Shown piece after piece: positions 6,018 to 54,477 of a DNA stretch of 64,000 bases (position 1 is its first letter; the number at the start of each line of letters is the position of its first letter). A model generated the notes under the pieces. That model saw nothing but the letters and a program-made list of their open reading frames with translations, was not told the origin of the DNA and searched no databases. The stretch is from an uncultured Acidobacteriota bacterium (GTDB lineage Bacteria; Acidobacteriota; Polarisedimenticolia; JACPZX01). The translations under genes and the position numbers were made by a program. Location: contig CAZMRF010000003.1 in NCBI GenBank assembly GCA_964568735.1, positions 36,454 to 100,453 on the forward strand, written 5' to 3'.

Positions 6018-7292
6018 CTAGTCCTTCGCGTGGCACTTGTTGCAGAGCACGCGCTGATACGACGCGAACGTGGTCACCGGGCGGTCGTAGTAGGCCGCCT
6101 GGGTCTCCGACGCCAGCCGACCCCGAGCGAACTGCGGGACGGTCGGAGTCGTGTCGGTGCCGGGATAGAGGCTGTTGTAGGTCATGAACTCGCCTTCGAT
6201 GTTCCAGCGCAGCGCGTATTCCCAGCCGGAGGCATGCGCGCGGTGACAGGAGAGGCAGGAGACCTGGTCGTTCGTCGACGGGCCGCCGAGCTGCGAGTTG
6301 TCGTTTCTCGCGAGCGGGGCGAGGACGGTGGCGTAGTCGCCGCTGTTCTTCACGAACGGAACGAGCGAGGTGAACGACGACCCGGCCGATCCGGTCATGT
6401 CGCCGGTCTTCACGTACTGCTCGTAGATGGTCGCGATCGTGGAGTCGAGGTCCTCGTCCGTAGGGTGGACGTAGTTCCCGCTCGAGTGCATGTCGGGATG
6501 GCAGGTTCCGCACCAGTTGCCCCAGGTGACGTGGCCGGGGTCGGAGGAGCGGCCGTAGGACGTGCGCGTCTGCGTCACGGCCTCCGTCCTGTTGTAGGTG
6601 CTGGGCACCTTCGCGGCGGGGACGCCGGCGAAGGTGACGCCGTCCTTGGTGTAGCCGGCGCCCGCGAGGAGGCGATAGACGCCGACCGCCGTGGTGCTGT
6701 TGGGCTCGTTATTCGTGGGGTTGTTGGGGTCGTAGTAGGAGCCCGAGGCGCGGATCGGACCGCCGGTCTTCGAGATGGCGCCGGTGTTCAGACGGCGGTA
6801 CTGGCCGTGCGGATCGTGGCAGCTGTTGCAGGCAAGCTGGCTCGACGGGAATCCGCTGCCGCCCGGTGCGTTTGCGTTCGTGCCATCCACCGAGTATCCG
6901 AAATCGACCGCGATGATGTTGTGGCCGTGGGTGTCGCCATCCTCGTTCGTCGTCGTGCCGCGAACGGTGAAGGAGTAGTCCTTCTTGATCCAGCCGAAGT
7001 CTCCGCCCGGAGACCTCTGCAACGGGGCCTGGCCTGCGCCGAGGCTGCCCGGGGCGGTGCTGATGTGATATGAGCTGGGACCGGTGTCGTTGGCGTTCTG
7101 GTGGCAGGTCAGGCACGCCGAGCTCTGGTCGGTCCCGACCAGCAGGAACTTTCCTCCTGCCATCGGGTTGTGCATGCTGTGGCAGCCGCTGCACTCCGCG
7201 ACGCCGCCTGAGTGGAACGCGTACGCGTTGCCGGCAAAAGCAGCGAGGGCCATCACCGCGAGCGCCAGCGCCCCCATTCTCAACGTCCTCAT
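6018..7292 (-). CDS. Secreted hexaheme c-type cytochrome
   Basis: Six CxxCH motifs (CSGCH, CLTCH, CNSCH, CGTCH, CLSCH, CNKCH). N-terminal signal peptide (ALALAVMALAAFAGNAYA). GAGGAGG RBS 5 nt upstream of ATG at 7290-7292. Confidence 0.85.
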   Translation of the reverse strand: MRTLRMGALALAVMALAAFAGNAYAFHSGGVAECSGCHSMHNPMAGGKFLLVGTDQSSACLTCHQNANDTGPSSYHISTAPGSLGAGQAPLQRSPGGDFGWIKKDYSFTVRGTTTNEDGDTHGHNIIAVDFGYSVDGTNANAPGGSGFPSSQLACNSCHDPHGQYRRLNTGAISKTGGPIRASGSYYDPNNPTNNEPNSTTAVGVYRLLAGAGYTKDGVTFAGVPAAKVPSTYNRTEAVTQTRTSYGRSSDPGHVTWGNWCGTCHPDMHSSGNYVHPTDEDLDSTIATIYEQYVKTGDMTGSAGSSFTSLVPFVKNSGDYATVLAPLARNDNSQLGGPSTNDQVSCLSCHRAHASGWEYALRWNIEGEFMTYNSLYPGTDTTPTVPQFARGRLASETQAAYYDRPVTTFASYQRVLCNKCHAKD

Positions 7293-9620: not shown

Positions 9621-13250
<3,630 letters not shown>

Positions 13251-13690
13251 GCGTTCTCCTCGCGGGGCCGGGAGCCTGTCCGGGTCGTGGCAGCGACCCG
13301 ACAAGCCGAGGCTTGGAAGTCGAGGCCGGGAGTGAAAAGTGGATGACCCCGGGTGCGGTCCGGCGCCCGCATACGAAACAGCAAGCTGGGTGCCACGCAG
13401 GTGCCGGGCCGAACCCGCGTATCCACCGAGGTTGGAGCGCCTCAGTGGACCCCGGCAAGCCGTCCCATCCGTGCAATCCCGCAGGTGCGCGATTTCACGC
13501 AGGCCATCCCCGCCGCCCCGAGCGCCGGCCAGGATGCCTGGCCGTGCTTGCAGGCGTAACCGAGATCGCGGATAGAGATGATCGAGTGAGGTACGGCAGC
13601 CAAGGCCGCTCATGAAACCGCCGCTGCAGGCGCACCTCGAATATCGGACAGCGTCAGCGGGCCGCATGTGGAGGGAGGAGGAGGGGTTTC

Positions 13691-13925: not shown

Positions 13926-14837
13926 TCAGCCGGTACGTCCACGATCGAATCGGTTGCGAACGTCCGTTCGTAGCCGCTCGGCAAGGGGCTCGTTCCAGCC
14001 TGAGCTTGAGTCCTCGATCACCTGCAGCTCGAGCGCGCTGAGATCACGCAGAGAGGCGAATCGAGTCTCCACGGAGGCCAGGATCTCGTCAGGTCGAACC
14101 TCTTCGGAGATCCGAATGAGACGCCGCAGATCCTCCCACTCGTAGTCGCCACTGCGGAGCTTAGAGAGAAACGCTTCGGGGTCGAATGGGTCGCGTACCT
14201 GCCAGAGCTTGAGGACGACCAGGGAGCGGAGCAGGTCGCTGTCGAACGGGGTCGTCGCGAAGCGGTGGAGGTCATACAGGTCGCGGACCTTGGCCCGTTG
14301 GAAAGCCGCCCGCACCTTCTCGGCGATCATTTCGATGGCCTCCAGCGACCGAATCTCGAAGATGTCGAACTCGAGGTGAGGAAAATAGGGTTGGTGCTCC
14401 ATCGTCCTCATCACGACTGGCAGCGTGGGGTGCTCGCGAAGGCTGACTTGCAGGCGGAAACGGCCCGCCTCGTTCCACGCATGCCGGTAAAGCACGTCCC
14501 TGCCGAAGGAAGTATCGTCCTCGGTCTTATAGTAGTCGGTGAGGGTGAACGCTATGTCATGGTGCACCCGATTGAAAACCTCGACGATCTGGACGAGTAC
14601 GTCGTCGTCCTTCTGTTCTGTCGCGAGTGTGAAGTCGAGATCTTCAGAGAAGCGTCCCGCTGAGCCGAAGATCAGTTTACGCAGGCACGTCCCCCCCTTG
14701 AATGCGAGGTATTCCATGACTCCCGAGTCGACCATGGCGCGGAGCGCGTAGGTCAGAACAACGTCCCGCTCTGCGACGAGTTTGTCGCGCAGGCCGCTGT
14801 TGCGTGCATAGAGGTCTACGTACTTGTCAGCAATCAT
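13926..14837 (-). CDS. abiEii: AbiEii/AbiGii-family nucleotidyltransferase toxin (type IV TA)
   Basis: Start at ATG 14835-14837 (MIADKYVDLYARNSGLRDK...), overlapping the antitoxin stop. Conserved 'AFKGGTCL' nucleotidyltransferase motif. About 303 aa. The track ORF extends 42 codons further upstream into the antitoxin. Confidence 0.8.
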   Translation of the reverse strand: MIADKYVDLYARNSGLRDKLVAERDVVLTYALRAMVDSGVMEYLAFKGGTCLRKLIFGSAGRFSEDLDFTLATEQKDDDVLVQIVEVFNRVHHDIAFTLTDYYKTEDDTSFGRDVLYRHAWNEAGRFRLQVSLREHPTLPVVMRTMEHQPYFPHLEFDIFEIRSLEAIEMIAEKVRAAFQRAKVRDLYDLHRFATTPFDSDLLRSLVVLKLWQVRDPFDPEAFLSKLRSGDYEWEDLRRLIRISEEVRPDEILASVETRFASLRDLSALELQVIEDSSSGWNEPLAERLRTDVRNRFDRGRTG

Positions 14838-15712
14838 CGGCGGCGTGGCTTGCCGGGGAAGACCACGCGGCGGCGGGGCTTCTCCTCTTTCGGGAGCAGC
14901 ACGCCTCTTGGGACGTTCTCCACGACGTTCCACGGTCGCACCAGGTTTCCCGTCGTGCCCCATTTGCGGCGGGAGCCGAGCTGGATCTTGCTCTGAGGGC
15001 GGACGAGCGCGAGCAGGGCCGAGCGGAAGTTTTCAGGCACCTCGGCCCGATGGAGATCGAGGAAGTAGCCCAGCCGCTGCGCGAGTGCGGAGGCTCCCCA
15101 TCTGCGCGTGAGATCGATGAGTCCATCCCACGAGATGCGGGGGGTGGCGCGCGCCACAATCCGGGAGGTCTCACCGAGGCCCCCTGCGTATCGGGGCCGA
15201 TCGATTGCGTCGAGCAAGGCCCGCTCCAGGGTTGCCATCTGGACCGGATGCCCCAGGACATTGCTCTTCCCGAATCCGAAGAAGCGGCGCCTCGGGACGT
15301 ATACGAAGACATAGCGGCGCCCCTGGATGGGTTCCGGGCGCCGCCGCTCCTGGCAGGCGACGTAGATCTCGGCAAACGTCTGCTCGGTGAGGCCGTGATG
15401 AGTGCAGGCGGTGCCGAACGAGAAGAAGTAGGGACTGACGATCAGCGCCGCCGCGGCAAGGGGGTTCGTGTCGGCTACTCCTTCCCGGCCGCGGTCGGCG
15501 GGCACGAGCTGGTAGAGCCCGGCCCGCAAGCGCTCGAACCAGCCTTTCTTCACGAGCCGATGAGCCATGCTCCGGGCGTAGCTCTCCGACGCTCCGAGGG
15601 ACTTGCTCAGCTCGGTAAGAGTGATGGTCTTCTGCCCCCGCCACTCCAGGTCGAGAACAATTTTGGCTTCGTTCCTGGAGAGGGTCCGCTCGATGGTTGC
15701 TGATTTAGCCAT
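14834..15712 (-). CDS. abiEi: AbiEi-family antitoxin/transcriptional regulator (DUF4095-type wHTH N-domain)
   Basis: About 292 aa from ATG 15710-15712 (MAKSATIERTLSRNEAKIVLDLEW...); alternative TTG at 15733. 4-bp overlap with the toxin start; the antitoxin-then-toxin order is typical of AbiE. Confidence 0.75.
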   Translation of the reverse strand: MAKSATIERTLSRNEAKIVLDLEWRGQKTITLTELSKSLGASESYARSMAHRLVKKGWFERLRAGLYQLVPADRGREGVADTNPLAAAALIVSPYFFSFGTACTHHGLTEQTFAEIYVACQERRRPEPIQGRRYVFVYVPRRRFFGFGKSNVLGHPVQMATLERALLDAIDRPRYAGGLGETSRIVARATPRISWDGLIDLTRRWGASALAQRLGYFLDLHRAEVPENFRSALLALVRPQSKIQLGSRRKWGTTGNLVRPWNVVENVPRGVLLPKEEKPRRRVVFPGKPRRR

Positions 15713-15813
15713 TTGTTTTGATTTTACTAACAAATAGCAAATCCTGCAACCTGGCGGAAACGCCCTCGAATCACCTTCTGGAATGGCCTCCAGTGTAAAA
15801 GGATGGGGGGAGG

Positions 15814-27208: not shown

Positions 27209-40111
<12,903 letters not shown>

Positions 40112-40206
40112 GTGCGGGACCTCCATGGCCGGTCGCTGAGCCCAGGCGCGAGTGCGAGGCATCGCTCCCGTTGTGGGCCCGGCATGCGGAGCGTGGTGCA
40201 AGCCGG

Positions 40207-40233
40207 ATTGTACGACCAAATGAATGCGCTCAA
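40207..40233 (-). promoter_or_regulatory. Weak candidate sigma70 promoter for the giant gene (-35 TTGAGC, 15-nt spacer, -10 TACAAT)
   Basis: Minus-strand 'TTGAGCgcattcatttggtcgTACAATcc' in an AT-richer stretch about 100 nt upstream of ATG 40111. Spacer is short. Confidence 0.2.
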
Positions 40234-41501: not shown

Positions 41502-43340
41502 GTGCGAAAACCCTTCCGCGAGATCCTGAAAGACACCATCGTCGTCTTCGACGGAGCGATGGGCACCGAGCTGTATGCTCGCGGTGTCTTCATCAACAAG
41601 TGCTACGACGAGCTGAACCTCTCCAACCCCAGGCTCGTCTCCGACGTCCACCGCGACTACAGGAAGGCCGGTGCCGACGTCCTCGAGACCAACACCTTCG
41701 GGGCCAACCGCTTCAAGCTGGGCGGGCACGGCTTCGGCGAGAAGACCGCCGAGATCAACAAGGCTGGAGCCCGGATCGCCAGGGAGATCGCCGGGGAAGA
41801 CCTCTACGTGGCCGGCTCCGTCGGCCCCCTGGGGCTCAAGATCGAGCCGTGGGGGCCGACGTCGATCCAGGAGGCGAGGGCGGCCTTCTCTGAGCAGGTC
41901 CAGGCGCTGGTCGAAGGCGGTGTGGACCTGATCTCGATCGAGACGATCTCGGATCTCAGCGAGATGCACCAGGCGATCCTCGCCGTCCAGGATCACTGCG
42001 ACCTGCCCATCGTGGCGCAGATGACGGTGGACGAGGACGGCCTGAGCCTCTACGGAACGGAGCCCGAGGTCTTCACCGCGAGGATCGACGAGTGGGGTGC
42101 CGACATGATCGGCGTCAACTGCTCGGTGGGGCCGCACGCGATCCTGGGCGCCCTCGAGCGGGTCGCGCGAGCCACCGAGAAGCCGCTCATCGTCCAGCCC
42201 AACGCAGGGACGCCGCGCAACGTCGACGGCCGCAACATCTACCTGTGCTCGCCCGAGTACATGGGCAGCTACGCCCGCCGCTTCATCCTCGCGGGAGCCA
42301 AGGCGGTCGGAGGCTGCTGCGGGACGACCCCCGATCACATCCGGCACATCGTGAAGTCGGTCCGGATGTTGCGGCCGGCGCAGCGCCACGTCGCCATCTT
42401 CGTGCCCAAGGACGAGAGCCAGGGCGTCGAGCCGGTGGTCCTGCGCGAGAAGTCGAACCTCGCCCGCAAGATCGTCGATGGCGAGTTCGTCACCTCCGTG
42501 GAGCTGCTCCCACCGAAGGGCATCTCGTCGGCCAAGGTCCTCGAGGCGGGCTGCCTCCTCAAGCAGAAGGGCGTCGACGCCGTCAACATCCCCGACGGCG
42601 CGCGCGCCACCGCCCGGATGGGCGCGATGTTCCTTGCGCTCCAGATGGTGCGCGAGGCCGGGATCGAGCCGATCCTCCACTACTGCTGCCGCGACCGGAA
42701 CCTGATCGGGATGCAGGGCGATCTCCTCGGCCTCTACGCCAGCGGGCTGCGCAACATCCTGATCATCACCGGCGATCCCCCCAAGCTGGGAGACTACCCC
42801 GACGCGACGGCGGTCTTCGACGTGGATGCCATCGGGCTGACCAACATGGTCACGCGCCTCAACCACGGGCTCGACCTCGGGGGCACGCCCATCGGGAAGC
42901 CCACCGGGTACTTCGTGGGTGTCGGGGCCAACCCCGGCGCGATGGACATCGCCTACGAGCTGAAGCGCTTCCGCTACAAGGTCGAGGCCGGGGCGGAGTT
43001 CGCCGTCACCCAGCCCGTCTTCGACGTCGAGCAGATCAAGAGCTTCCTCGAGGCCGTGCGCGGCCACAGGATCCCGGTCATCGCCGGCATCTGGCCCCTG
43101 GCCTCCCTGCGCAACGCCGAGTTCATGCGCAACGAGGTCCCCGGCGTCGTCGTGCCCGACCACGTCATGGAACGGATGCGGAAGGCCGACGCCGAGGGGA
43201 AGGGAAAGGAGGAGGGCGGCCTCATCGCTCGAGAGACCCTCGAGGAGCTGAGGCCCCTGATCCAGGGAGTGCAGGTCTCCGCCCCCTTCGGGAAGGTCCA
43301 GGGCGCCCTCGACGTCCTCAAGGTCGTCGGGATCGGCTAG
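41502..43340 (+). CDS. Bifunctional homocysteine S-methyltransferase (MetH N-domain-like) / 5,10-methylenetetrahydrofolate reductase (MetF) fusion
   Basis: N-half 'VFDGAMGTELY...GADVLETNTFGAN...GVNCSVGP' (Hcy-binding pterin-like barrel, Zn Cys ligands in 'GGCCGTTP'). C-half 'SVELLPPKG...MVTRLNHGLDLGG...AVTQPVFD' of the MTHFR family. Confidence 0.85.
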   Translation: MRKPFREILKDTIVVFDGAMGTELYARGVFINKCYDELNLSNPRLVSDVHRDYRKAGADVLETNTFGANRFKLGGHGFGEKTAEINKAGARIAREIAGEDLYVAGSVGPLGLKIEPWGPTSIQEARAAFSEQVQALVEGGVDLISIETISDLSEMHQAILAVQDHCDLPIVAQMTVDEDGLSLYGTEPEVFTARIDEWGADMIGVNCSVGPHAILGALERVARATEKPLIVQPNAGTPRNVDGRNIYLCSPEYMGSYARRFILAGAKAVGGCCGTTPDHIRHIVKSVRMLRPAQRHVAIFVPKDESQGVEPVVLREKSNLARKIVDGEFVTSVELLPPKGISSAKVLEAGCLLKQKGVDAVNIPDGARATARMGAMFLALQMVREAGIEPILHYCCRDRNLIGMQGDLLGLYASGLRNILIITGDPPKLGDYPDATAVFDVDAIGLTNMVTRLNHGLDLGGTPIGKPTGYFVGVGANPGAMDIAYELKRFRYKVEAGAEFAVTQPVFDVEQIKSFLEAVRGHRIPVIAGIWPLASLRNAEFMRNEVPGVVVPDHVMERMRKADAEGKGKEEGGLIARETLEELRPLIQGVQVSAPFGKVQGALDVLKVVGIG

Positions 43341-43403
43341 GCCGGAGACGGGGATTCCGATCCGGCCAGAGGCGCCGTGCGTCTCCTCTCGTTCCACTCC
43401 CCC

Positions 43404-43859
43404 TCAGCGCCGCTTCTTGCTGCCCGCGAGCGCCCCATCCACCGACCAGCGGCCGCCGCCCGTGAATAACAGGATCACGGCAAGCCCGGCGGCGAGGATG
43501 TGGTACTCGTAGCCCTCGCCGGCCTGGGTGCCAGACCAGTTCATGAAGAAGCCGTTCGGGAAATGGGCCATCCGCACGGCGCCAATCATGATGGCGAGGA
43601 TCCCGAGCGCCGAGATCCTCGTCAGGAAGCCTGCGATCAGCCCTAGGGCTCCGGCCGATTCGGTCAGGATCACGAGGAGGGCCAGGATCCAGGGGATGCC
43701 GAGCTGCTCGGTGAAGAACCCCATGGTCCCCGAAAAGCCGTTACCGCCAAACCAGCCGAGCGTCTTCTGCAGGCCGTGGGGGAGCATGACCACGCCCAGA
43801 ACCAGCCGGGCGAACAGTCCCGCCCACGAGCCATCCGATTTGAGGATCAGCTGTTTCAT
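43404..43859 (-). CDS. DoxX-family membrane protein
   Basis: 151 aa from ATG 43857-43859 (MKQLILKSDGSWAGLFARLVLGVVMLPHGLQK...). Four TMs with DoxX-like 'LPHGxxK' and 'GLxExxGALGL' blocks. Confidence 0.7.
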   Translation of the reverse strand: MKQLILKSDGSWAGLFARLVLGVVMLPHGLQKTLGWFGGNGFSGTMGFFTEQLGIPWILALLVILTESAGALGLIAGFLTRISALGILAIMIGAVRMAHFPNGFFMNWSGTQAGEGYEYHILAAGLAVILLFTGGGRWSVDGALAGSKKRR

Positions 43860-44032
43860 GCCTTCAACTCCTCCAGCCAGGGGTTGGATGCCGAGACGGC
43901 AGCGCATGATACTCGGGGCGGACCCCGAACGCGGGGCCGGATTCTCTGCTACTCTGTGGCTCCCGCCCGCCGGGCAAGGCGTGACCGGAGCCGGTCGCGC
44001 CTCCCGCCCGCAATTGGGGCGGGCGACCCTTC

Positions 44033-44710
44033 ATGAAAAAAGGCCAGGTTTCCTTCGCCATCGCGGGCCTCATCTTCGGCTTCCTCGTGGGCTTCGTCGT
44101 GTCCCATCAGGTGTATGTGGGGAGGGGCGTCCCCGCCTTCGAGCACCCTCCGATGCCCGGCGGGATGACCGCGGGCGGGGGGCCGATGGGAGCGGGGTCG
44201 GCCGGACTCCGGGGCCAGGGTCAGGAGGGTGCGCCGGCGCCGGCGCCGGAAGGCGGGGCTCCCGACATGGCCACCATGGAGGGGGTCCAGAAGGAGATCG
44301 CCGGGCTCAAGGCGACTCTCGAGAAGGAGCCGCGGAACACCGAATCTCTCAGCCGTCTCGGGGACCTCTACTTCGACGCTGGCATGTTCGACGGGGCCAT
44401 CGGCTACTACGAGAAGGCGCTCGAGATCGAGCCGGGCAACGTCCTGGTGCGGACGGATCTGGGGACCTCTCTCCGGCGCACGGGCCACCCGGACCGGGCC
44501 ATGAAGGAGTTCGAGGCGGCCGTGCAGGCCGACCCGTCGCACTGGCGGGGCTGGTTCAACATCGGCGTCGTCGCCCTCTACGACCTCGGGCAGTACGATC
44601 GGGCCGAGGAGGCCTTCGCCAAAGTGGACGACCTGAACCCGGGCTCGATCGACATGACGGCCCTTCAGACGGAGATCAAGCGCGTGCGGGCCGAAGGAGC
44701 CGGCGGATGA
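44033..44710 (+). CDS. Membrane-anchored TPR-repeat protein (N-terminal TM, Gly/Pro/Ala-rich linker, 3-4 TPRs)
   Basis: MKKGQVSFAIAGLIFGFLVGFVV TM helix. TPR motifs 'LGDLYFDAGMFDGAIGYYEKALEIEPGN...'. Stop overlaps the aldolase start (ATGA). Confidence 0.7.
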   Translation: MKKGQVSFAIAGLIFGFLVGFVVSHQVYVGRGVPAFEHPPMPGGMTAGGGPMGAGSAGLRGQGQEGAPAPAPEGGAPDMATMEGVQKEIAGLKATLEKEPRNTESLSRLGDLYFDAGMFDGAIGYYEKALEIEPGNVLVRTDLGTSLRRTGHPDRAMKEFEAAVQADPSHWRGWFNIGVVALYDLGQYDRAEEAFAKVDDLNPGSIDMTALQTEIKRVRAEGAGG

Positions 44711-45492
44711 CCTCGCGCTCCGAGCACCAGCTCCGCAAGGACATCTGCGAGGTCGGCCGCCGCATGTACCAGAAGGGGTTCATCGCAGCCAACGACGGCA
44801 ACATCTCGGCGCGCATGGACAACGGCAACGTGCTCCTCACGCCCTCGGCGACGAACAAGGGACGGCTCGACGAGGAGGACCTGGTCGTCACCGACATGCA
44901 TGGAGTCCGCCTCTACGGCCGGAAGGAGCCCTCCAGCGAGCTTCCGATGCACCTCGTCGTCTACAGGGAGCGGCCCGACGTGAGGGCCGTCGTGCACGCC
45001 CACCCGCCCTACGCCACGGGATTCTCGGTGGCGGGAGTTCCACTCGACAAGCCTCTCATCTCCGAGGTCGTGCTCACGCTGGGCACCGTCCCGCTCGCGG
45101 AGTACGGAACGCCGACGACGCCGGAGCTCGCGGAGGCGATCGAGCCCTACGTGCGCGAGCACGACGCGATCCTGATGGCGAACCACGGCGCGATGACTTC
45201 GGGCCCCGATCTCTTCACGGCCTACGACCGGATGGAGACGCTGGACCATTTCGCGCACATCTGGCTCGTGGCCCGCATCATGGGCACGGAGCGATCGCTC
45301 TCCGCGGAAAACGTTGCCAAGCTCAAGGCTATCCGCGAGCGGACGCACTTCGAGCCGCCTGTGGATGCCTGCTTCACCTGTCCCATTCTCGATGAGAAGA
45401 TGAAGTCGGCCGGCGGCGGGAAGATCCAGCTCACGCGCGAGCAGCTCGTCGACCTCGTCGCCGACGTGGTCAGGGGCCTGGACGTTGCCTGA
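44707..45492 (+). CDS. Class II aldolase/adducin-family protein (L-fuculose-/rhamnulose-phosphate aldolase-like) with a C-terminal encapsulation-peptide-like extension
   Basis: '[18 protein letters not shown]', '[11 protein letters not shown]', 'ANHGAMTSG' (Zn-binding His of class II aldolases). About 45-aa C-terminal extension '[29 protein letters not shown]' (flexible linker plus amphipathic helix). The 654-aa track ORF 43528..45492 is an artefact. Confidence 0.85.
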
Positions 45493-45524
45493 GGATCCTC
45501 ATGAAGGATAAGGAAGGAGCCGTA

Positions 45525-45809
45525 ATGGGCGAAGCGCTGGGTATGGTGGAGACCCGCGGCCTCGTGGCGATGATCGAGGCCGCGGACGCGATGGTGAAGG
45601 CGGCGAAGGTCACCCTGGTCGGCTACGAGAAGATCGGGTCGGGCCTCGTAACGGTCCTGGTCCGGGGCGACGTCGCGGCGTGCAAGGCCGCGACGGACGC
45701 CGGCGCGGCCGCGGCTCGCAAGGTCGGAGAGCTCGTCTCCGTCCACGTGATCCCGAGGCCTCACGCCAGCCTCGAGGACAGGCTTCCCATCGGGAAGACC
45801 GCGAGGTAG
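45525..45809 (+). CDS. Bacterial microcompartment hexamer shell protein (BMC-H; PduA/EutM/CcmK family)
   Basis: [80 protein letters not shown], very similar to PduA. GGAAGGAG RBS 6 nt upstream of ATG 45525 (the track ORF starts at 45501). Confidence 0.9.
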
Positions 45810-45845
45810 CCCGGCGGACGGGCGGCTCGCGAGCGCAGGTCCCGA

Positions 45846-46136
45846 ATGTTTCTGGCCCGGGTTGTCGGAACGGTCGTCGCCACGCGGAAGGACGACCGCC
45901 TCGAAGGGTGCAAGCTGCTGGTCGTCCAGCCTGTCGACGAGACGGGCAAGGACGAGGGGCGGTGCGTGGTTGCTGTGGACACGGTCTCGGCCGGCAACCG
46001 CGAGGTGGTCCTCGTCGTCAGCGGATCTTCGGCGCGCATGACCACGCGCACGAAAGACTCCCCGGTGGATGCCGCCATCGTGGGCATCGTGGACACCGTC
46101 GCGATCGACGATGCGGCTCCATGGGGCACGCCGTGA
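45846..46136 (+). CDS. BMC vertex pentamer protein (BMC-P; EutN/CcmL/PduN family), paralog 1
   Basis: MFLARVVGTVVATRKDDRLEGCKLLVVQP...VVAVDTVSAGNREVVLVVSGSSAR...AIVGIVD, canonical EutN/CcmL fold signature. Confidence 0.85.
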   Translation: MFLARVVGTVVATRKDDRLEGCKLLVVQPVDETGKDEGRCVVAVDTVSAGNREVVLVVSGSSARMTTRTKDSPVDAAIVGIVDTVAIDDAAPWGTP

Positions 46137-46429
46137 ACCTCGGCCGCGTCGTGGGCCGCGTCGTCTCCAGTCATAAAGATGCCGGCCTGACCGGCCGGAA
46201 GATCCTGATCATCCAGCCGCTCGGCGCGGATCTCTCCGCGCGGGGGTCGACCATCGTCGCCGCCGACGCGGTGGGGGCCGGGGCGGGTGAGACGGTCATC
46301 TGGGTGCGGGGCCGCGAGGCCGCCCATGCCTTCCTGCCCGACGAGGTGCCTGTGGATGCGGGCGTCGTCGGGATCGTGGACGAGGCCTACGTGGACGAGA
46401 GCGCAGGCAGGCGGAGCCCATCGCGGTGA
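46133..46429 (+). CDS. BMC-P vertex protein, paralog 2
   Basis: (V/M)NLGRVVGRVVSSHKDAGLTGRKILIIQP...IVAADAVGAGAGETVIWVRGREAA...GVVGIVD. GTG 46133 overlaps the paralog-1 stop (GTGA); an alternative ATG at 46121 would add MGHA. Confidence 0.8.
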   Translation: MNLGRVVGRVVSSHKDAGLTGRKILIIQPLGADLSARGSTIVAADAVGAGAGETVIWVRGREAAHAFLPDEVPVDAGVVGIVDEAYVDESAGRRSPSR

Positions 46430-46716
46430 TCCTCGCACGGGTCATCGGCAACGTCGTCGCCACCAGGAAGCACGACGCCTTCCACTCCTTCAAGCTCATG
46501 CTCGTGCGCCCCGTGGGTGTTGACGGCGGCGACGCCGGCGACGAGTTCATGGCGGCGGACGGCGTGGGGGCCGGGCCCGGGGAGACGGTCCTCGTCGTGG
46601 TGGAGGGGCGGTCGGCGGGCCAGGCCCTCCGCAAGGAGCGGGCGCCGCTCGATGCCGCCATCGTCGGGATTGTCGATCGGATCGACTGCGACACCCAGGA
46701 GCATCGCCGGCCATGA
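46426..46716 (+). CDS. BMC-P vertex protein, paralog 3
   Basis: (V/M)ILARVIGNVVATRKHDAFHSFKLMLVRP...FMAADGVGAGPGETVLVVVEGRSAGQ...AIVGIVD. GTG start overlapping the previous stop (GTGA). Confidence 0.85.
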   Translation: MILARVIGNVVATRKHDAFHSFKLMLVRPVGVDGGDAGDEFMAADGVGAGPGETVLVVVEGRSAGQALRKERAPLDAAIVGIVDRIDCDTQEHRRP

Positions 46717-46752
46717 CCCCCATCGGCCAGGGAGCCGGATCCTCGTGCTGCG

Positions 46753-47097
46753 ATGAGAATGAAGCTCGGCACGTTGCCTGACGGGCGCAGGCCGCCAGGT
46801 GCCGGGGAGCTCATCCCCCCCGGCTGGGTCGGCCTCCCCGCGGACGGGAAGGAGGCCGCCGGCGCCGCGCGCCGCGAGGAGCCCGCCGCCGGGGCTGCGC
46901 GCGATCGGATCGCGCGGGCGCTCGGGGAGGCGCTGGCGCCCGGCGTCATGCCGGCGCGCTCCGTGATAGCTTCGATCGACTCCGCCGTGCGCGAGCACGT
47001 GAGCCCCATCACTCCATGGGGTGAGCGCTCTGCCTGCATCATCGAGCCCGGCAAGCCCTGCCGCGGAAGCGGGCGCTGCCGGGAAAGAGGGTACTGA
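46753..47097 (+). CDS. Hypothetical small protein (114 aa) between the BMC-P genes and the large TPR gene
   Basis: ORF only. Pro/Ala/Arg-rich N-half and a Cys-containing tail (ACIIEPGKPCRGSGRC). Codon usage is weakly protein-like. Stop is 6 nt before the next ATG. Confidence 0.3.
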   Translation: MRMKLGTLPDGRRPPGAGELIPPGWVGLPADGKEAAGAARREEPAAGAARDRIARALGEALAPGVMPARSVIASIDSAVREHVSPITPWGERSACIIEPGKPCRGSGRCRERGY

Positions 47098-47102
47098 CGA
47101 GG

Positions 47103-49181
47103 ATGGACGACAAGCGAATCCAGAGTCTCCTGGAGCTGGCGGGATCCGAGTACAACCAGGGGAAGTACGCCGAGGCCATCGAGCACTGGCAGGAGATCCT
47201 GAGCCTGGATCCCGAGAACCAGAAGGCCCGCGAGGGGATTCGCATGGCGAAGCTCCTCGTCGTGAACTGGGAGTCGTCCCAGGCCGGCGGGGAGGAGCTG
47301 ATGCTCGATACCGGGGGCGTCGACCCGGAGACGCAGCAGAAGATCGAGTTCGGGATCGCGCGCGTCAGGGAGCTCCTGACCTCGGGACGCCACAAGGAGG
47401 CGATGGAAGGCTGCCAGCTCCTCGCCGAGCTCGCGCCGGGGATGCCCTCCGTCACTCAGCTCCAGGAGGAGATTGCCCACGCGATCGAGGTGCAGCCCTA
47501 CATCGGGGAGCATCTCGGGCGGGCGCGCAAGCTGATCGCCGCCGGCAAGGGAGGCGAGGCCGTAGAGGAGGCCCGGAAGGTCCTCTCGGTGGATCCAGGA
47601 AACCCCGAGGCGCAGGGCATCGTCAGCAAGGGGCGCGGAACGGCTGCGCCCGGGGCGAGCCCCTCCGCCTTCGACAAGGAGGGCCATCCCGCGCCGCCTT
47701 CACCCTTCGCGGGGAGCAGCAAGGCCGACGAGATGATGGCGAGCATGGACCTCGGGCAGCACGGGGGAGGGCGCGCAGGCGACGCGGCCGGCGAGGAATC
47801 GCCCATCGAGATGGAGTTCGAGGAGGTCAGCTCGCACGCCCCCTCGCCGGGAGCCGGGAGCGACGGAAAGGTGGCCCGCATGCTGGAGCAGGGGCGCGGG
47901 CTCTTCGCCCAGAAGAAGTACCAGGAGGCCATCGATGTCTGGTCGCGGGTCTTCACCCTCGACGAATCGAACGTCGAGGCGGGCAACCTGATCGACCAGG
48001 CCAATGCCCGCATCGCCGAGATCGTCAGCAAGGTCGAGGACGCGATGTACCGGGCGCAGGACCAGGTCGATGCCGGGAATCTGGCGGGCGCCAAGAAAGT
48101 CTTCGAGGAGGTTCTCTCCATCCAGCCCGGGAACCGGGAAGCCCTCGACAGGATCGCGAAGATCGACGAGCAGCTCTCGGGGCCCGACCTCGGCGAGGCC
48201 ATCCCGATGGCGGCCAGCCAGCCGGGGACGGGCGCGGAGGCCGCGCCGGAGGCCGGAGCCGGAGAACGAGCCGGCAAGTCCCAGTCCTCGGAGGCTTTCC
48301 GTGCGGCTCCCGGAATTCGAGCCGCCTCACCGCAGCGAGCCGCCTCGTCGTCGGGCGCGGCGGGGATCTTCAAGAAGAAGCCCGTCGTCCCCATACCGCC
48401 TGCGGGCGGGTCGGGCCGCACCGCCGTCGTCTCAGCGCTCGTGGTGATCGTCCTCGGTGGAGCGGCGGCCGGCTGGTGGTTCCTCATGGGCACGGGAGCG
48501 GAGGCGCCTGAAGAGATCGGGCCGCCACCCGAAGCCTCGGCCGGGCTGCCTGGGGCCACGCCGACCACCAAGGAACCCGAAAAGCCGGGCTCCGCCGCCG
48601 GCCCCGGATCGGCCGAGGCAGGAGTCGCGCCGCAGCAGAAGCAGCCGGCCCAGCCCGCCGATCCTGCCGCCGTGCAGAAACAGATCGCCTCCTTGATGAG
48701 AGAGGGGAGAGATCTCCTGGGGCAGAAGCAGTACACCGAGGCACATTCCCGCTTCAAGGAGGTTCTCGCTCTCGATGTCTCCAACTTCGACGCGGAAGAG
48801 CTGCGGCTGAAGGCCTCGGCGGGAATGGCCGAGGAGGCCCGCTTCAACAAGGATCTCGAGTCGGCCAGGGCCGCCTTCGAGGATCAGGACTGGGCTTCGT
48901 CGCTCTACAAGCTCTACAGGCTGCAGCAGGAGCGCGAGGACATGACCATCCTCAAGCGCTACATCGCGAATGCGAACCACAACTGGGGTGTGCAGGATCT
49001 GGAGGCGTTCCGCCTGACGGAAGCGCTCGAGCACTTCCAGGACGCTCTGGAGCAGCTTCCTGACGACCGGGCGACCCAGCAACACATCAACGTCGTGCAG
49101 CGCTACGAGAAGCGCCGGCGCGATCCCGCCTTCGACGCCTACATCGCCAAGCTGAAGCTGAGGGCCCTCGACGCGCGCTGA
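47103..49181 (+). CDS. Large TPR-repeat protein with a central transmembrane helix (692 aa)
   Basis: N-terminal TPRs (YNQGKYAEAIEHWQEILSLDPEN...), an acidic/Pro-Ala-rich low-complexity region, a TM segment 'TAVVSALVVIVLGGAAAGWWFLMG', then C-terminal TPR/coiled-coil repeats. AGGATGG start context. Confidence 0.7.
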   Translation: MDDKRIQSLLELAGSEYNQGKYAEAIEHWQEILSLDPENQKAREGIRMAKLLVVNWESSQAGGEELMLDTGGVDPETQQKIEFGIARVRELLTSGRHKEAMEGCQLLAELAPGMPSVTQLQEEIAHAIEVQPYIGEHLGRARKLIAAGKGGEAVEEARKVLSVDPGNPEAQGIVSKGRGTAAPGASPSAFDKEGHPAPPSPFAGSSKADEMMASMDLGQHGGGRAGDAAGEESPIEMEFEEVSSHAPSPGAGSDGKVARMLEQGRGLFAQKKYQEAIDVWSRVFTLDESNVEAGNLIDQANARIAEIVSKVEDAMYRAQDQVDAGNLAGAKKVFEEVLSIQPGNREALDRIAKIDEQLSGPDLGEAIPMAASQPGTGAEAAPEAGAGERAGKSQSSEAFRAAPGIRAASPQRAASSSGAAGIFKKKPVVPIPPAGGSGRTAVVSALVVIVLGGAAAGWWFLMGTGAEAPEEIGPPPEASAGLPGATPTTKEPEKPGSAAGPGSAEAGVAPQQKQPAQPADPAAVQKQIASLMREGRDLLGQKQYTEAHSRFKEVLALDVSNFDAEELRLKASAGMAEEARFNKDLESARAAFEDQDWASSLYKLYRLQQEREDMTILKRYIANANHNWGVQDLEAFRLTEALEHFQDALEQLPDDRATQQHINVVQRYEKRRRDPAFDAYIAKLKLRALDAR

Positions 49182-49192
49182 TCCGGACGTTG

Positions 49193-50803
49193 TCAGTGGC
49201 GGAAGTGGCGGCGCCCCGTGAAGACCATGGCCATGCCATGCTCGTCGGCGGCGGCGATGACCTCGGCGTCGCGGGTCGAGCCGCCGGGCTGAATGACGGC
49301 GGCCACGCCGCTCGAGGCGGCGGCATCCACCCCGTCCCGGAAGGGAAAGAAGGCGTCCGACGCCATCACGGTGCCAACAAGCCCTTCGCTCGCCTTCATG
49401 ACGCCTATCCGGGCGGAGTCCACCCGGCTCATCTGGCCGGCCCCGATCCCGATGGTGCGCGTCCCCCGGACGTAGACGATGGCATTGGACTTCACGTGGC
49501 GGCTCACGCGCCACGCGAAGAGGAGCGACCGCATCTCCTCCTCCGCCGGCTGCCTGCGCGTCACCGTCTTGAACGAGGCCGGGCTCTCCGTGATGCGATC
49601 CCGGTCCTGCACGAGGAGGCCGCCATGGACCCGCCGGAGGTCCCAGCCCGTCGCGGGGCGAGGGGGCCCTCCCGCATCCATCAGCCTGAGGTTCTTCCTG
49701 CCCCGGAGCAGGTCGAGGGCGCCCGGGTCGAAGCCGGGCGCGATGATCACTTCCAGGAAGAGCGAGGCGATCTCGGCGGCGGTCGCGGGGTCCACGGCAC
49801 GGTTCGTGGCAACGATGCCTCCGAAGGCCGACGTGGGGTCGCAGTCGCGCGCCTGCCGGTAGGCCTCGAGCAGCGTGGGCGCCGTGGCAGCGCCCGAGGG
49901 CGTGTTGTGCTTCACGACGACACAGGCGATCTCGTCGAACTCGGCGACGGCCGCCCAGGCGGAGTCCATGTCGAGGACGTTGTTGAAGGAGAGATCCTTC
50001 CCCTGGATCTGCGTCGCGGTGACGGGGCCCGACGGGGGAGAGCCGCCGGGCGGGGTCTCCGACGGGTCCGAGTAGAGAACGGCGCCCTGGTGGCTGTTCT
50101 CCCCGTAGCGCAGCTCGCGCTTCCGCCGCAGCCCGAGCGTGAGCAGCGCAGGGAAGCGGCCGGGAGGAGTGGGCCCGTCGTCGAGAGCCATGTCCCCCTC
50201 CGAGCGCCTCCTGAAGTAGTCGGCGATCCGGGAGTCGTAGTAGGCCGTGTGGGCGAAGGCGCGCGCGGCCAGCCTGCGGCGAGTGGGCTCGCTGACTTCC
50301 CCCCGGCTCTCGATCTCGTCCATCACGTCGCCGTAGTCGTCGGGATCCGTGAGAACGACGACGTCCTCATGGTTCTTCGCGGCGGATCGAATCATCGAAG
50401 GTCCGCCGATGTCGATCATCTCGACGACCGCGGCGGAGTCATCGGCCTTGCGGGCCAGCGTCTCCTCGAAGGGGTACAGGTTTACCACGACGAGGTCGAT
50501 CGGGACGAGGCCCTGGCGGCTCAGCTCGGACATGTGGGAGGGCTCGTCCCTGCGGGCCAGGATGCCGCCATGGATGGCGGGGTGGAGAGTCTTGACGCGC
50601 CCGTCGAGGATCTCGGGGGATCCGGTGTGCTCCGAGACCTGCTTCACAGGGACTCCCGCCTCGCTCAGAGCCGCCGCGGTGCCGCCCGTCGAGAGAATCT
50701 CGATGCCCTGCCTGTGCAGCGCCCGCCCCAGCTCGGCCAGACCCCGCTTGTCGTAGACGCTGATCAGCGCGCGTTCAATCCTTCGAGGCTTCTTTTTGTC
50801 CAT
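49193..50803 (-). CDS. purH: Bifunctional AICAR transformylase / IMP cyclohydrolase
   Basis: [43 protein letters not shown]... (MGS-like IMPCH domain) and a C-terminal AICARFT domain (...GGIVATNR...). Confidence 0.9.
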
Positions 50804-52935: not shown

Positions 52936-53064
52936 CGTCGGGTGGCGTCTCCGTGGAAAAGTCCGTCGAGAGCCGCTGGAAGCCGCACGGCTCGTATAAT
53001 ATAGCGGGCGTCGGAAACACAGTACAAACCGCGCCTCCTCGGGGAAGGACGACGCCGCCCGGCG

Positions 53065-54477
53065 ATGCACAAAGCCCCCGCATCATCTCTCAGGAAGATC
53101 CCTCCCGTGAGCGCCCTGCTGGAGCGGCCGGAGGTGGCCGCGATGGCCCGGCGCTTCTCGCGGGCCTTCGTCACGGAGCTGGTCCGCGAGGCGGTCACGG
53201 AGCTCCGCAGCTCCGTGGCTTCGGGTGAGGCTCGACTGGCGGACGTCGAGGCCTTCGCCTCCAGCCTCGGGGAACGGCTCGAGGCGGCCGTCGCGAGACG
53301 TTTCGGCGGCCGCGTGACGCCCGTCATCAACGCGACCGGCGTGATCGTTCACACGAACCTGGGACGATCGCGGTGGGCGAAGGTCGCGGTAGAGCGTGCC
53401 GCCGCGGCGGCGGCGGAGTATTGCGATCTCGAGTACGACCTGAAAGAGGGGGAGAGAGGCTCGCGCCTCGCGTACGTGGAGTCCCTCCTCGGGAAGCTCT
53501 TCCCGGGGCGTGCCGGCATCGCCGTGAACAACAACGCCGGCGCCGTCCTCCTCTCTCTCAACACCCTGGCCGAGGGCCGGGAGGTGCTGATCTCGCGCGG
53601 TGAGCTGGTCGAGATCGGAGGCTCGTTCAGGATCCCCGACGTGATGGCGAAGAGCGGGGCCCTCATGCGGGAGGTCGGCACAACGAACCGGACGCGCCTG
53701 GCTGACTTCGAGAAGGGCCTCTCCGATCGCACGGGACTCATGTTGAAGGTTCATACCAGCAACTTCCGCATCCTCGGCTTCGCGGAGGAGGCGCCTCTCG
53801 CGGACCTCGCGTCACTGGCGGCGAGGGCGGGACTTCCGCTTCTCGTCGATCAGGGAAGCGGGAACCTGCTCGATCTGTCGCCCTGGGGTCTGCGAGACGA
53901 GCCTCCGGTCTCCCGGCTGCTCGCGGAGGGAGCGGACGTCGTCTGCTTCTCCGGCGACAAGCTTCTCGGAGGGCCCCAGGCCGGGATCCTCGTCGGGCGC
54001 GAGGACCTCGTGGCGCGGATGAAGAAGAACCCCATCTACCGTGCCGTCCGGCCCGACAAGAGCTGCGTGGCCGCCCTCGAGGCGACCCTCGAGATCTTCG
54101 TGAGCGGCGATCCCCTCTCGGAGATCCCGACGCTCAGGATGCTCTCGGCGCCGGCATCGGAGATGCAGGCCCGCGCGGAGAGGATTGCCCGGGGTCTTTC
54201 GGAAGCGGCGAGGGACGGCGTCGAGATCGAGGTGATCGAAGGCGCCTCGATGGTGGGAGGCGGATCGGCGCCCGGCCAGGGGATCCCCACAGCTCTCGTG
54301 GCGCTGCGTCCAGCCGGCGGGAGCGCCGCCGAGTACGAGCGCGCGCTCAGGACCGGTCGCCATCCGGTCGTCGCGCGTGTCCAGGAGGGTCGGCTCCTCA
54401 TCGACCCGAGGACGGTGGACGTGGAGGAGGAGGTCCGCCTGATCGCGGCGCTGGAGGCTGCGATCTCGCGTGGCTGA
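53065..54477 (+). CDS. selA: L-seryl-tRNA(Sec) selenium transferase (selenocysteine synthase)
   Basis: 'VINATGVIVHTNLGRS', 'FSGDKLLGGPQAGILVGRED' (PLP-Lys region), about 470 aa with SelA-family N-terminal 'IPPVSALLERPEV'. Confidence 0.85.
   Translation: MHKAPASSLRKIPPVSALLERPEVAAMARRFSRAFVTELVREAVTELRSSVASGEARLADVEAFASSLGERLEAAVARRFGGRVTPVINATGVIVHTNLGRSRWAKVAVERAAAAAAEYCDLEYDLKEGERGSRLAYVESLLGKLFPGRAGIAVNNNAGAVLLSLNTLAEGREVLISRGELVEIGGSFRIPDVMAKSGALMREVGTTNRTRLADFEKGLSDRTGLMLKVHTSNFRILGFAEEAPLADLASLAARAGLPLLVDQGSGNLLDLSPWGLRDEPPVSRLLAEGADVVCFSGDKLLGGPQAGILVGREDLVARMKKNPIYRAVRPDKSCVAALEATLEIFVSGDPLSEIPTLRMLSAPASEMQARAERIARGLSEAARDGVEIEVIEGASMVGGGSAPGQGIPTALVALRPAGGSAAEYERALRTGRHPVVARVQEGRLLIDPRTVDVEEEVRLIAALEAAISRG

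What the first reader, a model, noticed from the sequence alone, without database searches (positions are those of the whole stretch)
45846..46716. Three tandem, divergent BMC-P (vertex pentamer) paralogs with identical GTGA stop/start coupling
Most BMC loci encode a single pentamer; here three EutN/CcmL-family genes (about 96-100 aa each) are chained with overlapping GTGA junctions, implying stoichiometric co-translation. The paralogs are clearly diverged (MFLARVVGTVVATRKDD..., NLGRVVGRVVSSHKD..., MILARVIGNVVATRKHD...), not recent duplicates. Triple BMC-P is a feature of PVM-type metabolosomes and may indicate heteropentamers or differently gated vertices.
Basis: partly seen in the sequence, partly recalled or inferred. 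Interest (0 to 1): 0.55.

Follow-up and report, generated by a model that had tools for sequence, protein, structure and literature searches.

The report
Known microcompartment pentamer gene triplet
Three back-to-back genes for the vertex protein of a bacterial microcompartment are real and intact, but they are the well-catalogued "BMC-P triplet", here in a compact aldolase-plus-shell operon like those of Acidobacteria, so the finding is largely ordinary.

Summary
Three intact ORFs (45846-46136, 46133-46429, 46426-46716; 96/98/96 aa) are each full-length Pfam EutN_CcmL (E 4e-32 to 4e-27), 42-50% identical, and joined by two GTGA stop/start overlaps. They end a same-strand cassette: class II aldolase with a C-terminal encapsulation-peptide-like helix, one EutM-like BMC-H, then P1-P2-P3.

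Three BMC-P paralogs are not unusual: Sutter et al. 2021 report that BMC-P occurs mostly singly or as three, and define a "BMC-P triplet" found in ACI, HO, SPU, PVM and FRAG types. This locus is not PVM. It most resembles the Acidobacteria ACI type, but no hydroxyacid dehydrogenase or aldehyde dehydrogenase was found in the ORFs scanned across the 64 kb.

The same five-gene order recurs in 10 Acidobacteria MAG loci. Each window paralog falls in a separate orthogroup that spans several phyla.

One modest addition: the P2-type to P3-type junction overlaps in 36 of 55 loci, against 3 of 15 for P1 to P2 and 0 of 22 for BMC-H to P1. It is spaced by 80-140 nt in most close relatives, so coupling is frequent but dispensable. 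Heteropentamers remain untested.

Verdict: new member of a known kind; low interest.

The parts
44033..44710 (+). TPR-repeat protein (225 aa) with a hydrophobic N-terminal segment. It may be the first gene of the operon. It is not conserved next to the cassette in relatives.
   Evidence: Pfam TPR families. Its stop overlaps the aldolase start as ATGA at 44707-44710. The JGI gene call is the same. No conserved counterpart in the syntenic loci.
44707..45492 (+). Class II aldolase (261 aa), the presumed cargo or signature enzyme. The catalytic domain covers residues ~4-207, followed by a linker and a C-terminal amphipathic helix ([20 protein letters not shown], about 45424-45489) that looks like an encapsulation peptide.
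   Evidence: PF00596 at E 1e-49. Best PDB relatives are L-fuculose-phosphate aldolases. No NCBIfam equivalog cutoff is reached. The C-terminal [LV][ST]R[ED][ED]L..[LM]V..A motif is conserved in 11 loci, and the hydrophobic moment peaks there.
45501..45809 (+). BMC-H hexamer shell protein (102 aa), EutM-like, with the usual DAMVKAA and IPRPH interface motifs.
   Evidence: PF00936 at E 2e-30. NCBIfam EutM equivalog at 147 bits, above its 133-bit cutoff. The motifs were read from the sequence.
45846..46136 (+). BMC-P paralog 1 (96 aa), orthogroup G1. This is the canonical type, with the GSSAR motif, and in relatives it sits next to BMC-H.
   Evidence: PF03319 at E 3.9e-32. Of the three it is closest to solved pentamers: 4i7a at 75.7 bits and the H. 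ochraceum shell pentamer 5v74 at 75.3 bits. The G1 HMM scores +23 bits over the next group. Motif.
46133..46429 (+). BMC-P paralog 2 (98 aa), orthogroup G2. It has GREAA where G1 has GSSAR, and a short basic C-terminal tail.
   Evidence: PF03319 at E 4e-27. The G2 HMM scores +45 bits over the next group. It clusters with the first gene of the P-P pairs of Myxococcota and Gemmatimonadota.
46426..46716 (+). BMC-P paralog 3 (96 aa), orthogroup G3, with KH(D/P) and VEG..A signatures.
   Evidence: PF03319 at E 1.4e-27. The G3 HMM scores +20 bits over the next group. It clusters with the second gene of the P-P pairs in other phyla. Motifs.
46133..46136 (+). GTGA overlap: P2 start GTG and P1 stop TGA.
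   Evidence: Only 3 of 15 G1-to-G2 junctions in related loci overlap.
46426..46429 (+). GTGA overlap: P3 start GTG and P2 stop TGA. A GGAG lies about 10 nt upstream.
   Evidence: 36 of 55 G2-to-G3 junctions in related loci overlap, 26 by 4 nt (NTGA) and 10 by 1 nt (TGATG).
46753..47097 (+). Uncertain small ORF (up to 114 aa) directly after P3, with three Cys near its C-terminus. It may not be a gene.
   Evidence: Third-position GC 0.86 but second-position GC 0.66. No significant homologue in 80 related loci. No credible Pfam or NCBIfam match.

Best explanation
The three genes are a standard 'BMC-P triplet': three anciently diverged paralogs of the pentameric vertex protein of bacterial microcompartment shells. 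They close a compact operon that also encodes one EutM-like hexamer (BMC-H) and a class II aldolase carrying a C-terminal encapsulation-peptide-like helix.

Shown here: family membership, intactness, the gene order, and conservation of that order in 10 Acidobacteria MAG loci. Also shown: each paralog belongs to a different orthogroup that spans several phyla.

Inferred:
- BMC-H tiles the facets, and the aldolase is drawn inside through its C-terminal helix.
- P1, the canonical GSSAR type, is the main vertex cap.
- P2 and P3 are most likely the catalogue's grey and orange clades, which always co-occur.
- P2 and P3 are additional homopentamers that occupy some vertices or serve an assembly or auxiliary role. 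The field has not yet defined that role.
- The 4-nt GTGA overlaps allow termination-reinitiation coupling, so P2 and P3 are made whenever P1 is translated. This is an operon-compaction feature that is frequent for the P2/P3 pair but not required.
- Remaining metabolosome enzymes, such as an aldehyde dehydrogenase, are probably encoded at a satellite locus outside the window, as described for the ACI type.
For: Full-length PF03319 matches for all three, PF00936 for the neighbour and PF00596 for the aldolase. EutM equivalog for BMC-H.

The order Ald-H-P-P-P is the same in L002, L003, L004, L005, L009, L010, L011, L013, L015 and L028 (L015's contig ends inside the second P). Only these genes are conserved across those loci.

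HMMs built from the relatives, with the window left out, assign P1, P2 and P3 to G1, G2 and G3 by margins of 20-45 bits. NJ trees recover the three clades across phyla.

G2-G3 adjacent pairs occur in 55 loci, including the Myxococcota P-P-aldolase loci that match the catalogue's HO satellite locus.

The aldolase C-terminal helix is conserved and amphipathic.

Published descriptions of the triplet and of the ACI type match: aldolase with C-terminal EP, BMC-H, adjacent triplet, and AldDh on a satellite (PMC8217296). An ACI-type satellite (BMC-H, AldDh, BMC-P) was seen in L046.
Against: The ACI main locus is described as also holding a 2-hydroxyacid dehydrogenase and three proteins of unknown family. 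None was found in the window ORFs scanned or conserved in the 10 syntenic loci.

The window's organism is not identified. The best BMC-P1 matches are 62-68% identical, and the aldolase is 43-51% identical to those of the syntenic loci.

The colour clades (green/grey/orange) were not assigned with the catalogue's own HMMs. Bootstrap support for the G2 and G3 splits is only 46%.

Pentamer formation, vertex occupancy, encapsulation and coupling were not tested.
Confidence: 0.85

Rival explanations
1. P2 and P3 co-assemble into mixed (hetero) pentamers or an obligate P2/P3 complex. The overlapping stop/start codons would exist to deliver them in fixed proportion.
For: G2-type and G3-type genes are adjacent, in that order, in 55 of the related loci across several phyla. 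Their junction overlaps in 36 of 55 loci, and in all members of 6 of 12 clusters at 60% identity, with 2 more clusters mixed. The comparison figures are 3 of 15 for G1-to-G2 and 0 of 22 for BMC-H-to-G1. [quoted passage not shown] Each group has its own conserved replacement of the canonical GSSAR loop.
Against: The BMC-P entries returned from the PDB have 5 chains, or multiples of 5, of one sequence, apart from E. coli EutN and one CsoS4A entry. No closer G2 or G3 structure exists. AlphaFold3 models of homomultimers are reported for the shell proteins of an archaeal operon with three P genes (PMC12747264). In most of the closest relatives the two genes are 80-140 nt apart. Adjacency and overlap are also expected for any two co-regulated genes.
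Confidence: 0.12
2. The cassette is a PVM-type (Planctomycetes-Verrucomicrobia) fucose/rhamnose metabolosome locus.
For: PVM loci have a BMC-P triplet and a pfam00596 aldolase signature enzyme.
Against: No AldDh, PTAC or acetate kinase was found in any window ORF scanned, and no further shell gene was detected. All loci with the same gene order are Acidobacteria/Terriglobia MAGs. A C-terminal EP on the aldolase, a single BMC-H and an adjacent triplet is the ACI description.
Confidence: 0.03
3. The five genes are a self-sufficient minimal compartment: an aldolase-only organelle with no aldehyde dehydrogenase, that is a 'BMC of unknown function' rather than a metabolosome fragment.
For: Only these five genes are conserved across 11 loci, and the flanks are unrelated housekeeping genes in each lineage. 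No AldDh was found in the window ORFs scanned.
Against: In the ACI type the AldDh is consistently on a satellite locus, and such a satellite was seen in L046. Only 64 kb of this genome, and 20 kb of each relative, were visible. An aldolase that releases an aldehyde without a sequestered consumer would be an unusual design for a microcompartment.
Confidence: 0.15
4. The three genes are recent tandem duplicates, or some are decaying or mis-called ORFs.
For: None beyond their tandem arrangement.
Against: They are 42-50% identical. Each is closer to same-position genes of other phyla than to its neighbours. All are full length with coding-type GC3.
Confidence: 0.01

Closest known systems
ACI-type bacterial microcompartment locus of Acidobacteria (Sutter et al. 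2021, Nat Commun 12:3809, Supplementary Data 2)
   Same: A pfam00596 aldolase with a C-terminal encapsulation peptide. A single BMC-H with the standard interface motifs. Three BMC-P paralogs encoded next to each other. No AldDh in the main locus. The nearest syntenic relatives are Acidobacteria MAGs.
   Different: No 2-hydroxyacid dehydrogenase (PF00389/PF02826) was found. The three ACI proteins of unknown family are also absent from the window and are not conserved in the 10 syntenic loci. The cassette is reduced to five genes set among housekeeping genes. The organism is unidentified, and the aldolase is only 43-51% identical to those of the relatives.
The 'BMC-P triplet' pattern: grey + orange + green/blue/purple clades, seen in ACI, HO, SPU, PVM and FRAG types
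   Same: Three paralogs, each in a separate deep clade. Two of them (G2, G3) co-occur as an adjacent pair across phyla. The third (G1) is of the canonical type that also occurs alone.
   Different: Nothing in kind. Here all three genes are contiguous and both junctions overlap by GTGA, whereas in many types the canonical copy sits apart from the pair.
Haliangium ochraceum (HO) shell system and its satellite locus (two BMC-P plus a class II aldolase)
   Same: The same G2-G3 pair sits next to a pfam00596 aldolase. P1 resembles the HO main-locus pentamer solved in PDB 5v74 (75 bits).
   Different: In the HO-like loci the order is P-P-aldolase with no BMC-H. HO shells also have three BMC-T proteins and an AldDh with an N-terminal EP. 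None of these is in the window.
PVM metabolosome (Planctomycetes/Verrucomicrobia; fucose/rhamnose)
   Same: A BMC-P triplet and a class II aldolase signature enzyme.
   Different: PVM loci carry AldDh, PTAC, acetate kinase and further genes. These are absent here, and the taxonomic neighbourhood is different.

Membership tests
BMC-P (Pfam PF03319, EutN/CcmL) | Full-length match to the PF03319 model above the gathering score | tested here: met
   111.1, 95.0 and 96.4 bits against a cutoff of 25. Model positions 1-83 of 83 are covered in all three.
BMC-P (Pfam PF03319, EutN/CcmL) | Encoded with a PF00936 BMC-H shell gene | tested here: met
   BMC-H at 45501-45809, 36 nt upstream of P1.
BMC-P (Pfam PF03319, EutN/CcmL) | Forms pentamers that cap shell vertices | not testable with these tools
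   Only sequence similarity to solved pentamers could be shown. No multimer prediction or experiment was possible.
BMC-P triplet (Sutter et al. 2021) | Three distinct BMC-P paralogs in one BMC system | tested here: met
   Three genes, 42-50% identical.
BMC-P triplet (Sutter et al. 2021) | Each paralog comes from a different deep clade, two of which always co-occur | tested here: met
   Leave-window-out HMMs give G1, G2 and G3 by margins of +23, +45 and +20 bits. The three splits are recovered in NJ trees with bootstrap 81, 46 and 46%. G2-G3 pairs occur in 55 loci.
BMC-P triplet (Sutter et al. 2021) | Assignment to the named grey, orange and green/blue/purple clades with the catalogue's HMMs | not tested
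The stored BMC-P tree file is truncated. The equation of G2 and G3 with grey and orange rests on the co-occurrence pattern only.
ACI-type BMC locus | pfam00596 aldolase with a C-terminal encapsulation peptide | tested here: met
   PF00596 at E 1e-49. A conserved amphipathic C-terminal helix follows a variable linker.
ACI-type BMC locus | [quoted passage not shown] | tested here: met
ACI-type BMC locus | 2-hydroxyacid dehydrogenase (PF00389/PF02826) in the main locus | tested here: not met
   No such domain in any window ORF scanned. No conserved extra gene in the syntenic loci.
ACI-type BMC locus | [quoted passage not shown] | tested here: inconclusive
   The ORF at 46753-47097 has three C-terminal Cys, but it has no homologue in 80 loci and is not conserved downstream of P3 in relatives.
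ACI-type BMC locus | AldDh with an EP on a satellite locus | not testable with these tools
   Only 64 kb of the genome is available. The source contig found is 2.5 kb. A satellite of this kind was seen in L046.
ACI-type BMC locus | Host is an acidobacterium | tested here: inconclusive
   All 10 loci with the same gene order are labelled Acidobacteria or Terriglobia. The window itself is an unassigned metagenome sequence.
PVM-type metabolosome | Locus with AldDh (PvmJ), acetate kinase (PvmG) and PTAC, besides the aldolase (PvmN) | tested here: not met
   Only the aldolase is present. No PF00171, PF06130 or PF00871 was found in the scanned ORFs. The gene list comes from the catalogue's HMM table.
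HO-type BMC | BMC-T proteins (two Tdp, one Ts) and an AldDh with an N-terminal EP | tested here: not met
   No second PF00936-like gene was detected in the window by tblastn, and no AldDh was found.

The most novel reading that the evidence does not exclude
The two BMC-P clades that always co-occur (P2 and P3 here) may be an obligately co-produced pair. They would work together as a mixed pentamer or a two-component vertex or assembly module, not as redundant caps. Their stop/start overlap, kept in about half to two-thirds of independent lineages, would be the genomic trace of that partnership. If so, this five-gene cassette (one BMC-H, no BMC-T, one EP-tagged cargo) would be the smallest natural system in which to test why many microcompartments carry three pentamer genes. 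It might also be a complete aldolase-only organelle.
Probability: 0.12. Interest if true: 0.6.

Novelty: new member of a known kind. Interest (0 to 1): 0.22.

Why it matters
As a finding it matters little. Triple BMC-P genes, their divergence and their adjacency in Acidobacteria loci are already catalogued.

The open question is why shells that need only 12 pentamers so often encode three pentamer paralogs. Both the 2021 catalogue and a 2024 SPU study state this as unsolved. This cassette does not answer it, but it offers two things:
- A very small natural test bed: one hexamer, three pentamers and one tagged cargo.
- A comparative hint that the P2/P3 junction is preferentially overlapped (36 of 55 loci), unlike P1/P2 or BMC-H/P1.

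It also shows that a reduced, five-gene ACI-like cassette recurs in at least 10 Acidobacteria MAG loci without the accessory genes listed for ACI.

Tried and rejected
- Colour clades: I looked in the catalogue's supplementary tree files for Hoch_4425, Hoch_4426 and Hoch_5814, to tie G1-G3 to the named clades. The stored BMC-P file is truncated and none was found.
- Source genome: an exact-protein look-up returned only a 2.5 kb JGI metagenome contig (sample 3300010391), so there is no taxonomy and no satellite loci.
- Small ORF 46753-47097: I tested whether it is the ACI short Cys protein. It has no homologue in 80 loci, no conserved counterpart downstream of P3, and no family match. It is left as uncertain.
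- Promoter and terminator scan of 43300-49400: no promoter-like site, no + strand terminator, and the counts do not exceed shuffles. Uninformative.
- Window-wide census of overlapping junctions: too crude to give a baseline, because short genes were filtered out. It only shows that overlaps are neither universal nor unique to this operon.
- Structure prediction was not run. The tool folds single chains only, so it cannot address homo- versus hetero-pentamers, and fold membership is already secure from Pfam.
- The large protein-database searches were not used, because the 80 genome loci answered the question.
- Rejected readings: recent duplication, pseudogenes and PVM membership (see rivals).

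Full report
**1. Observation**

- P1: 45846-46136, ATG start, 96 aa.
- P2: 46133-46429, GTG start, 98 aa.
- P3: 46426-46716, GTG start, 96 aa.

Both junctions read GTGA, with the start GTG overlapping the stop TGA by four bases.

Each protein matches Pfam PF03319 (EutN_CcmL) over the entire 83-position model, with E-values of 3.9e-32, 4e-27 and 1.4e-27. Third-position GC is 0.85-0.91, like the neighbouring genes. An independent JGI gene call on a 2.5 kb metagenome contig gives the same P1, BMC-H and aldolase. Pairwise identity is 42-50%.

**2. Surroundings**

On the same strand, directly upstream, lie:
- A class II aldolase (44707-45492, PF00596, E 1e-49).
- A BMC-H hexamer gene (45501-45809, PF00936, E 2e-30). 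It passes the NCBIfam EutM equivalog cutoff.

The aldolase catalytic domain ends near residue 207. It is followed by a variable linker and a C-terminal helix, [20 protein letters not shown]. This helix has the highest hydrophobic moment in the tail, and its motif is conserved in 11 loci. That is the anatomy of a C-terminal encapsulation peptide.

A TPR gene (44033-44710) overlaps the aldolase start by ATGA. A doubtful small ORF follows P3 (46753-47097).

No other shell gene was detected in the 64 kb. Pfam scans of the other window ORFs found only unrelated or housekeeping genes. These include a giant YD/RHS-like protein (read from its sequence, not scanned), Dam methylase, a homocysteine methyltransferase-MTHFR fusion, DoxX, PurH, SelA, YchF, PFOR, peptidases and an AbiE pair. 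They found no aldehyde dehydrogenase, phosphotransacylase, acetate kinase or 2-hydroxyacid dehydrogenase.

**3. Relatives**

A scan of one genome per species returned 80 loci encoding relatives of P1.

Ten of them carry the same genes in the same order: aldolase, BMC-H, P, P, P. They are L002, L003, L004, L005, L009, L010, L011, L013, L015 and L028, all labelled Acidobacteria or Terriglobia MAGs. L015's contig ends inside the second P. An all-against-all comparison of their flanks shows that only these five genes are shared. The flanks are lineage-specific housekeeping genes such as ruvB, folK, panBC, gdh and folD. The unit is therefore a self-contained five-gene cassette.

**4. The three paralogs are ancient**

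I built HMMs from the first, second and third BMC-P of nine relatives, leaving the window out. They assign P1, P2 and P3 to groups G1, G2 and G3, with margins of 23, 45 and 20 bits.

Neighbour-joining trees of 178 and of 60 BMC-P sequences recover the three groups as clean splits that span several phyla. Bootstrap support is 81, 46 and 46%, which is modest for about 89 columns.

G2 and G3 genes form adjacent pairs, in that order, in 55 loci. These include:
- The Myxococcota P-P-aldolase loci, which correspond to the HO satellite locus of the catalogue.
- Gemmatimonadota and Eisenbacteria loci.

G1 keeps the GSSAR loop, which from my own knowledge of EutN, PduN and CcmL is the canonical form. 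G2 has GREAa and G3 has xEG..ar at the same place. P1 scores best against solved pentamers: 75 bits to 5v74 and 4i7a, against about 54 bits for P2 and P3. No closer solved structure appeared for the G2 or G3 types.

**5. Comparison with what is known**

Sutter et al. [quoted passage not shown] The triplet is listed for ACI, HO, PVM, FRAG1-8 and other types, and for SPU in the 2024 study.

Their ACI type is exclusive to Acidobacteria. It has:
- A pfam00596 aldolase with a C-terminal EP.
- A BMC-H with standard motifs.
- A 2-hydroxyacid dehydrogenase and three proteins of unknown family.
- Its AldDh on a satellite locus.

I saw such a satellite (BMC-H, a 610-aa AldDh, BMC-P) in the Pyrinomonadaceae locus L046.

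The window cassette meets the aldolase-EP, BMC-H and adjacent-triplet criteria. It lacks the dehydrogenase and the unknown proteins. It is therefore best called an ACI-like, reduced locus. It is not PVM and not HO (see the membership table).

The reason for three pentamer genes is still stated as unknown in 2024. A 2025 preprint describes archaeal operons with gene order H1, P1, H2, Ts, P2, P3. It reports AlphaFold3 models of homomultimers for those shell proteins.

**6. The GTGA overlaps**

In the related loci the junction distances are as follows:

| Junction | Loci that overlap | Detail |
|---|---|---|
| G2 to G3 | 36 of 55 | 26 as NTGA, 10 as TGATG |
| G1 to G2 | 3 of 15 | |
| BMC-H to G1 | 0 of 22 | gaps of 2-361 nt |

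After clustering the G2-G3 pairs at 60% identity there are 12 clusters. In 6 all members overlap, 2 are mixed and 4 have no overlap.

The P2/P3 overlap is thus a recurrent trait of this pair. The P1/P2 overlap is nearly specific to this window. Even so, seven of the eight loci in the nearest Terriglobia cluster have spacers at G2-G3, six of them of 81-142 nt. Overlap is therefore not required for function.

Overlap is compatible with termination-reinitiation coupling. It does not by itself establish fixed stoichiometry, and it says nothing direct about heteropentamers.

**7. Most likely mechanism**

BMC-H forms the facets, and the aldolase is recruited through its C-terminal helix. P1 is the canonical vertex cap. 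P2 and P3 are members of the two co-occurring clades. They are probably additional homopentamers with a vertex, assembly or accessory role that remains undefined, and they are co-expressed with P1 from one transcript. Other core enzymes probably lie elsewhere in the genome.

The shown steps are family membership, gene order, conservation and orthology. The inferred steps are assembly, encapsulation, coupling and the satellite enzymes.

**8. Verdict**

This is a new member of a known kind and of low interest.

The residual value is a compact natural system, and a junction statistic, that bear on the unsolved question of why BMC-P triplets exist.

Noticed in passing
window 46753-47097 (+): A small ORF (up to 114 aa) starts 36 nt after P3 and ends 5 nt before the next TPR gene. 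It has a possible amphipathic helix (RDRIARALGEALA) and exactly three Cys near the C-terminus. This recalls the ~80-aa ACI protein with an EP and three Cys. However, it has no homologue in 80 loci and no family match, and its second-position GC is high (0.66).
   Followed up: partly
window 44033-44710 (+) and 47103-49181 (+): TPR-repeat genes flank the cassette on the same strand. The upstream one has a hydrophobic N-terminal segment and overlaps the aldolase start by ATGA, so it may be co-transcribed. Neither is conserved next to the cassette in relatives.
   Followed up: partly
related loci L001-L080 (G2-to-G3 junctions): Across phyla, the second and third BMC-P types are adjacent in a fixed order. 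Their genes overlap (NTGA or TGATG) in 36 of 55 loci. BMC-H-to-P1 junctions never overlap (0 of 22), and P1-to-P2 junctions rarely do (3 of 15).
   Followed up: yes
window 27209-40219 (-): A giant ORF of about 4336 aa. It has many Cys-rich CDG.DNDCDG-type repeats, a long YD/RHS-like repeat region and a C-terminal part that looks VgrG/Rhs-tip-like on reading. It was not analysed with any family search.
   Followed up: no
window 13929-15733 (-): An AbiEii nucleotidyltransferase toxin (PF08843, E 1.5e-29) lies next to an AbiEi-like antitoxin/regulator. This is a type IV toxin-antitoxin or abortive-infection pair.
   Followed up: no
window 41502-43340 (+): A single 612-aa ORF fuses a homocysteine S-methyltransferase domain (PF02574) to a methylenetetrahydrofolate reductase domain (PF02219).
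   Followed up: no
window 9621-13667 (-), 53005-54477 (+), 6018-7292 (-): A large single-chain pyruvate:ferredoxin oxidoreductase, a selenocysteine synthase SelA and a multihaem cytochrome point to an anaerobic or microaerobic, selenoprotein-using organism. Window GC is 68%. The source is JGI metagenome 3300010391.
   Followed up: no
L046 7561-13954 (+): A Pyrinomonadaceae locus with BMC-H, a 610-aa AldDh with a long C-terminal extension, a single BMC-P, an ACT-domain protein, a zinc-ribbon protein, DUF711 and a second BMC-H. It matches the described ACI satellite locus, and it adds ACT and DUF711 neighbours.
   Followed up: partly
window 46400-46429; L013 around 10540-10569: The P2-type proteins of the window and of L013 end in short Arg/Ser-rich tails (AGRRSPSR; DRRARSRS). 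A 2025 preprint reports Lys/Arg-rich disordered, DNA-binding tails on the P2 pentamer of archaeal microcompartments. The tails here are far shorter.
   Followed up: no
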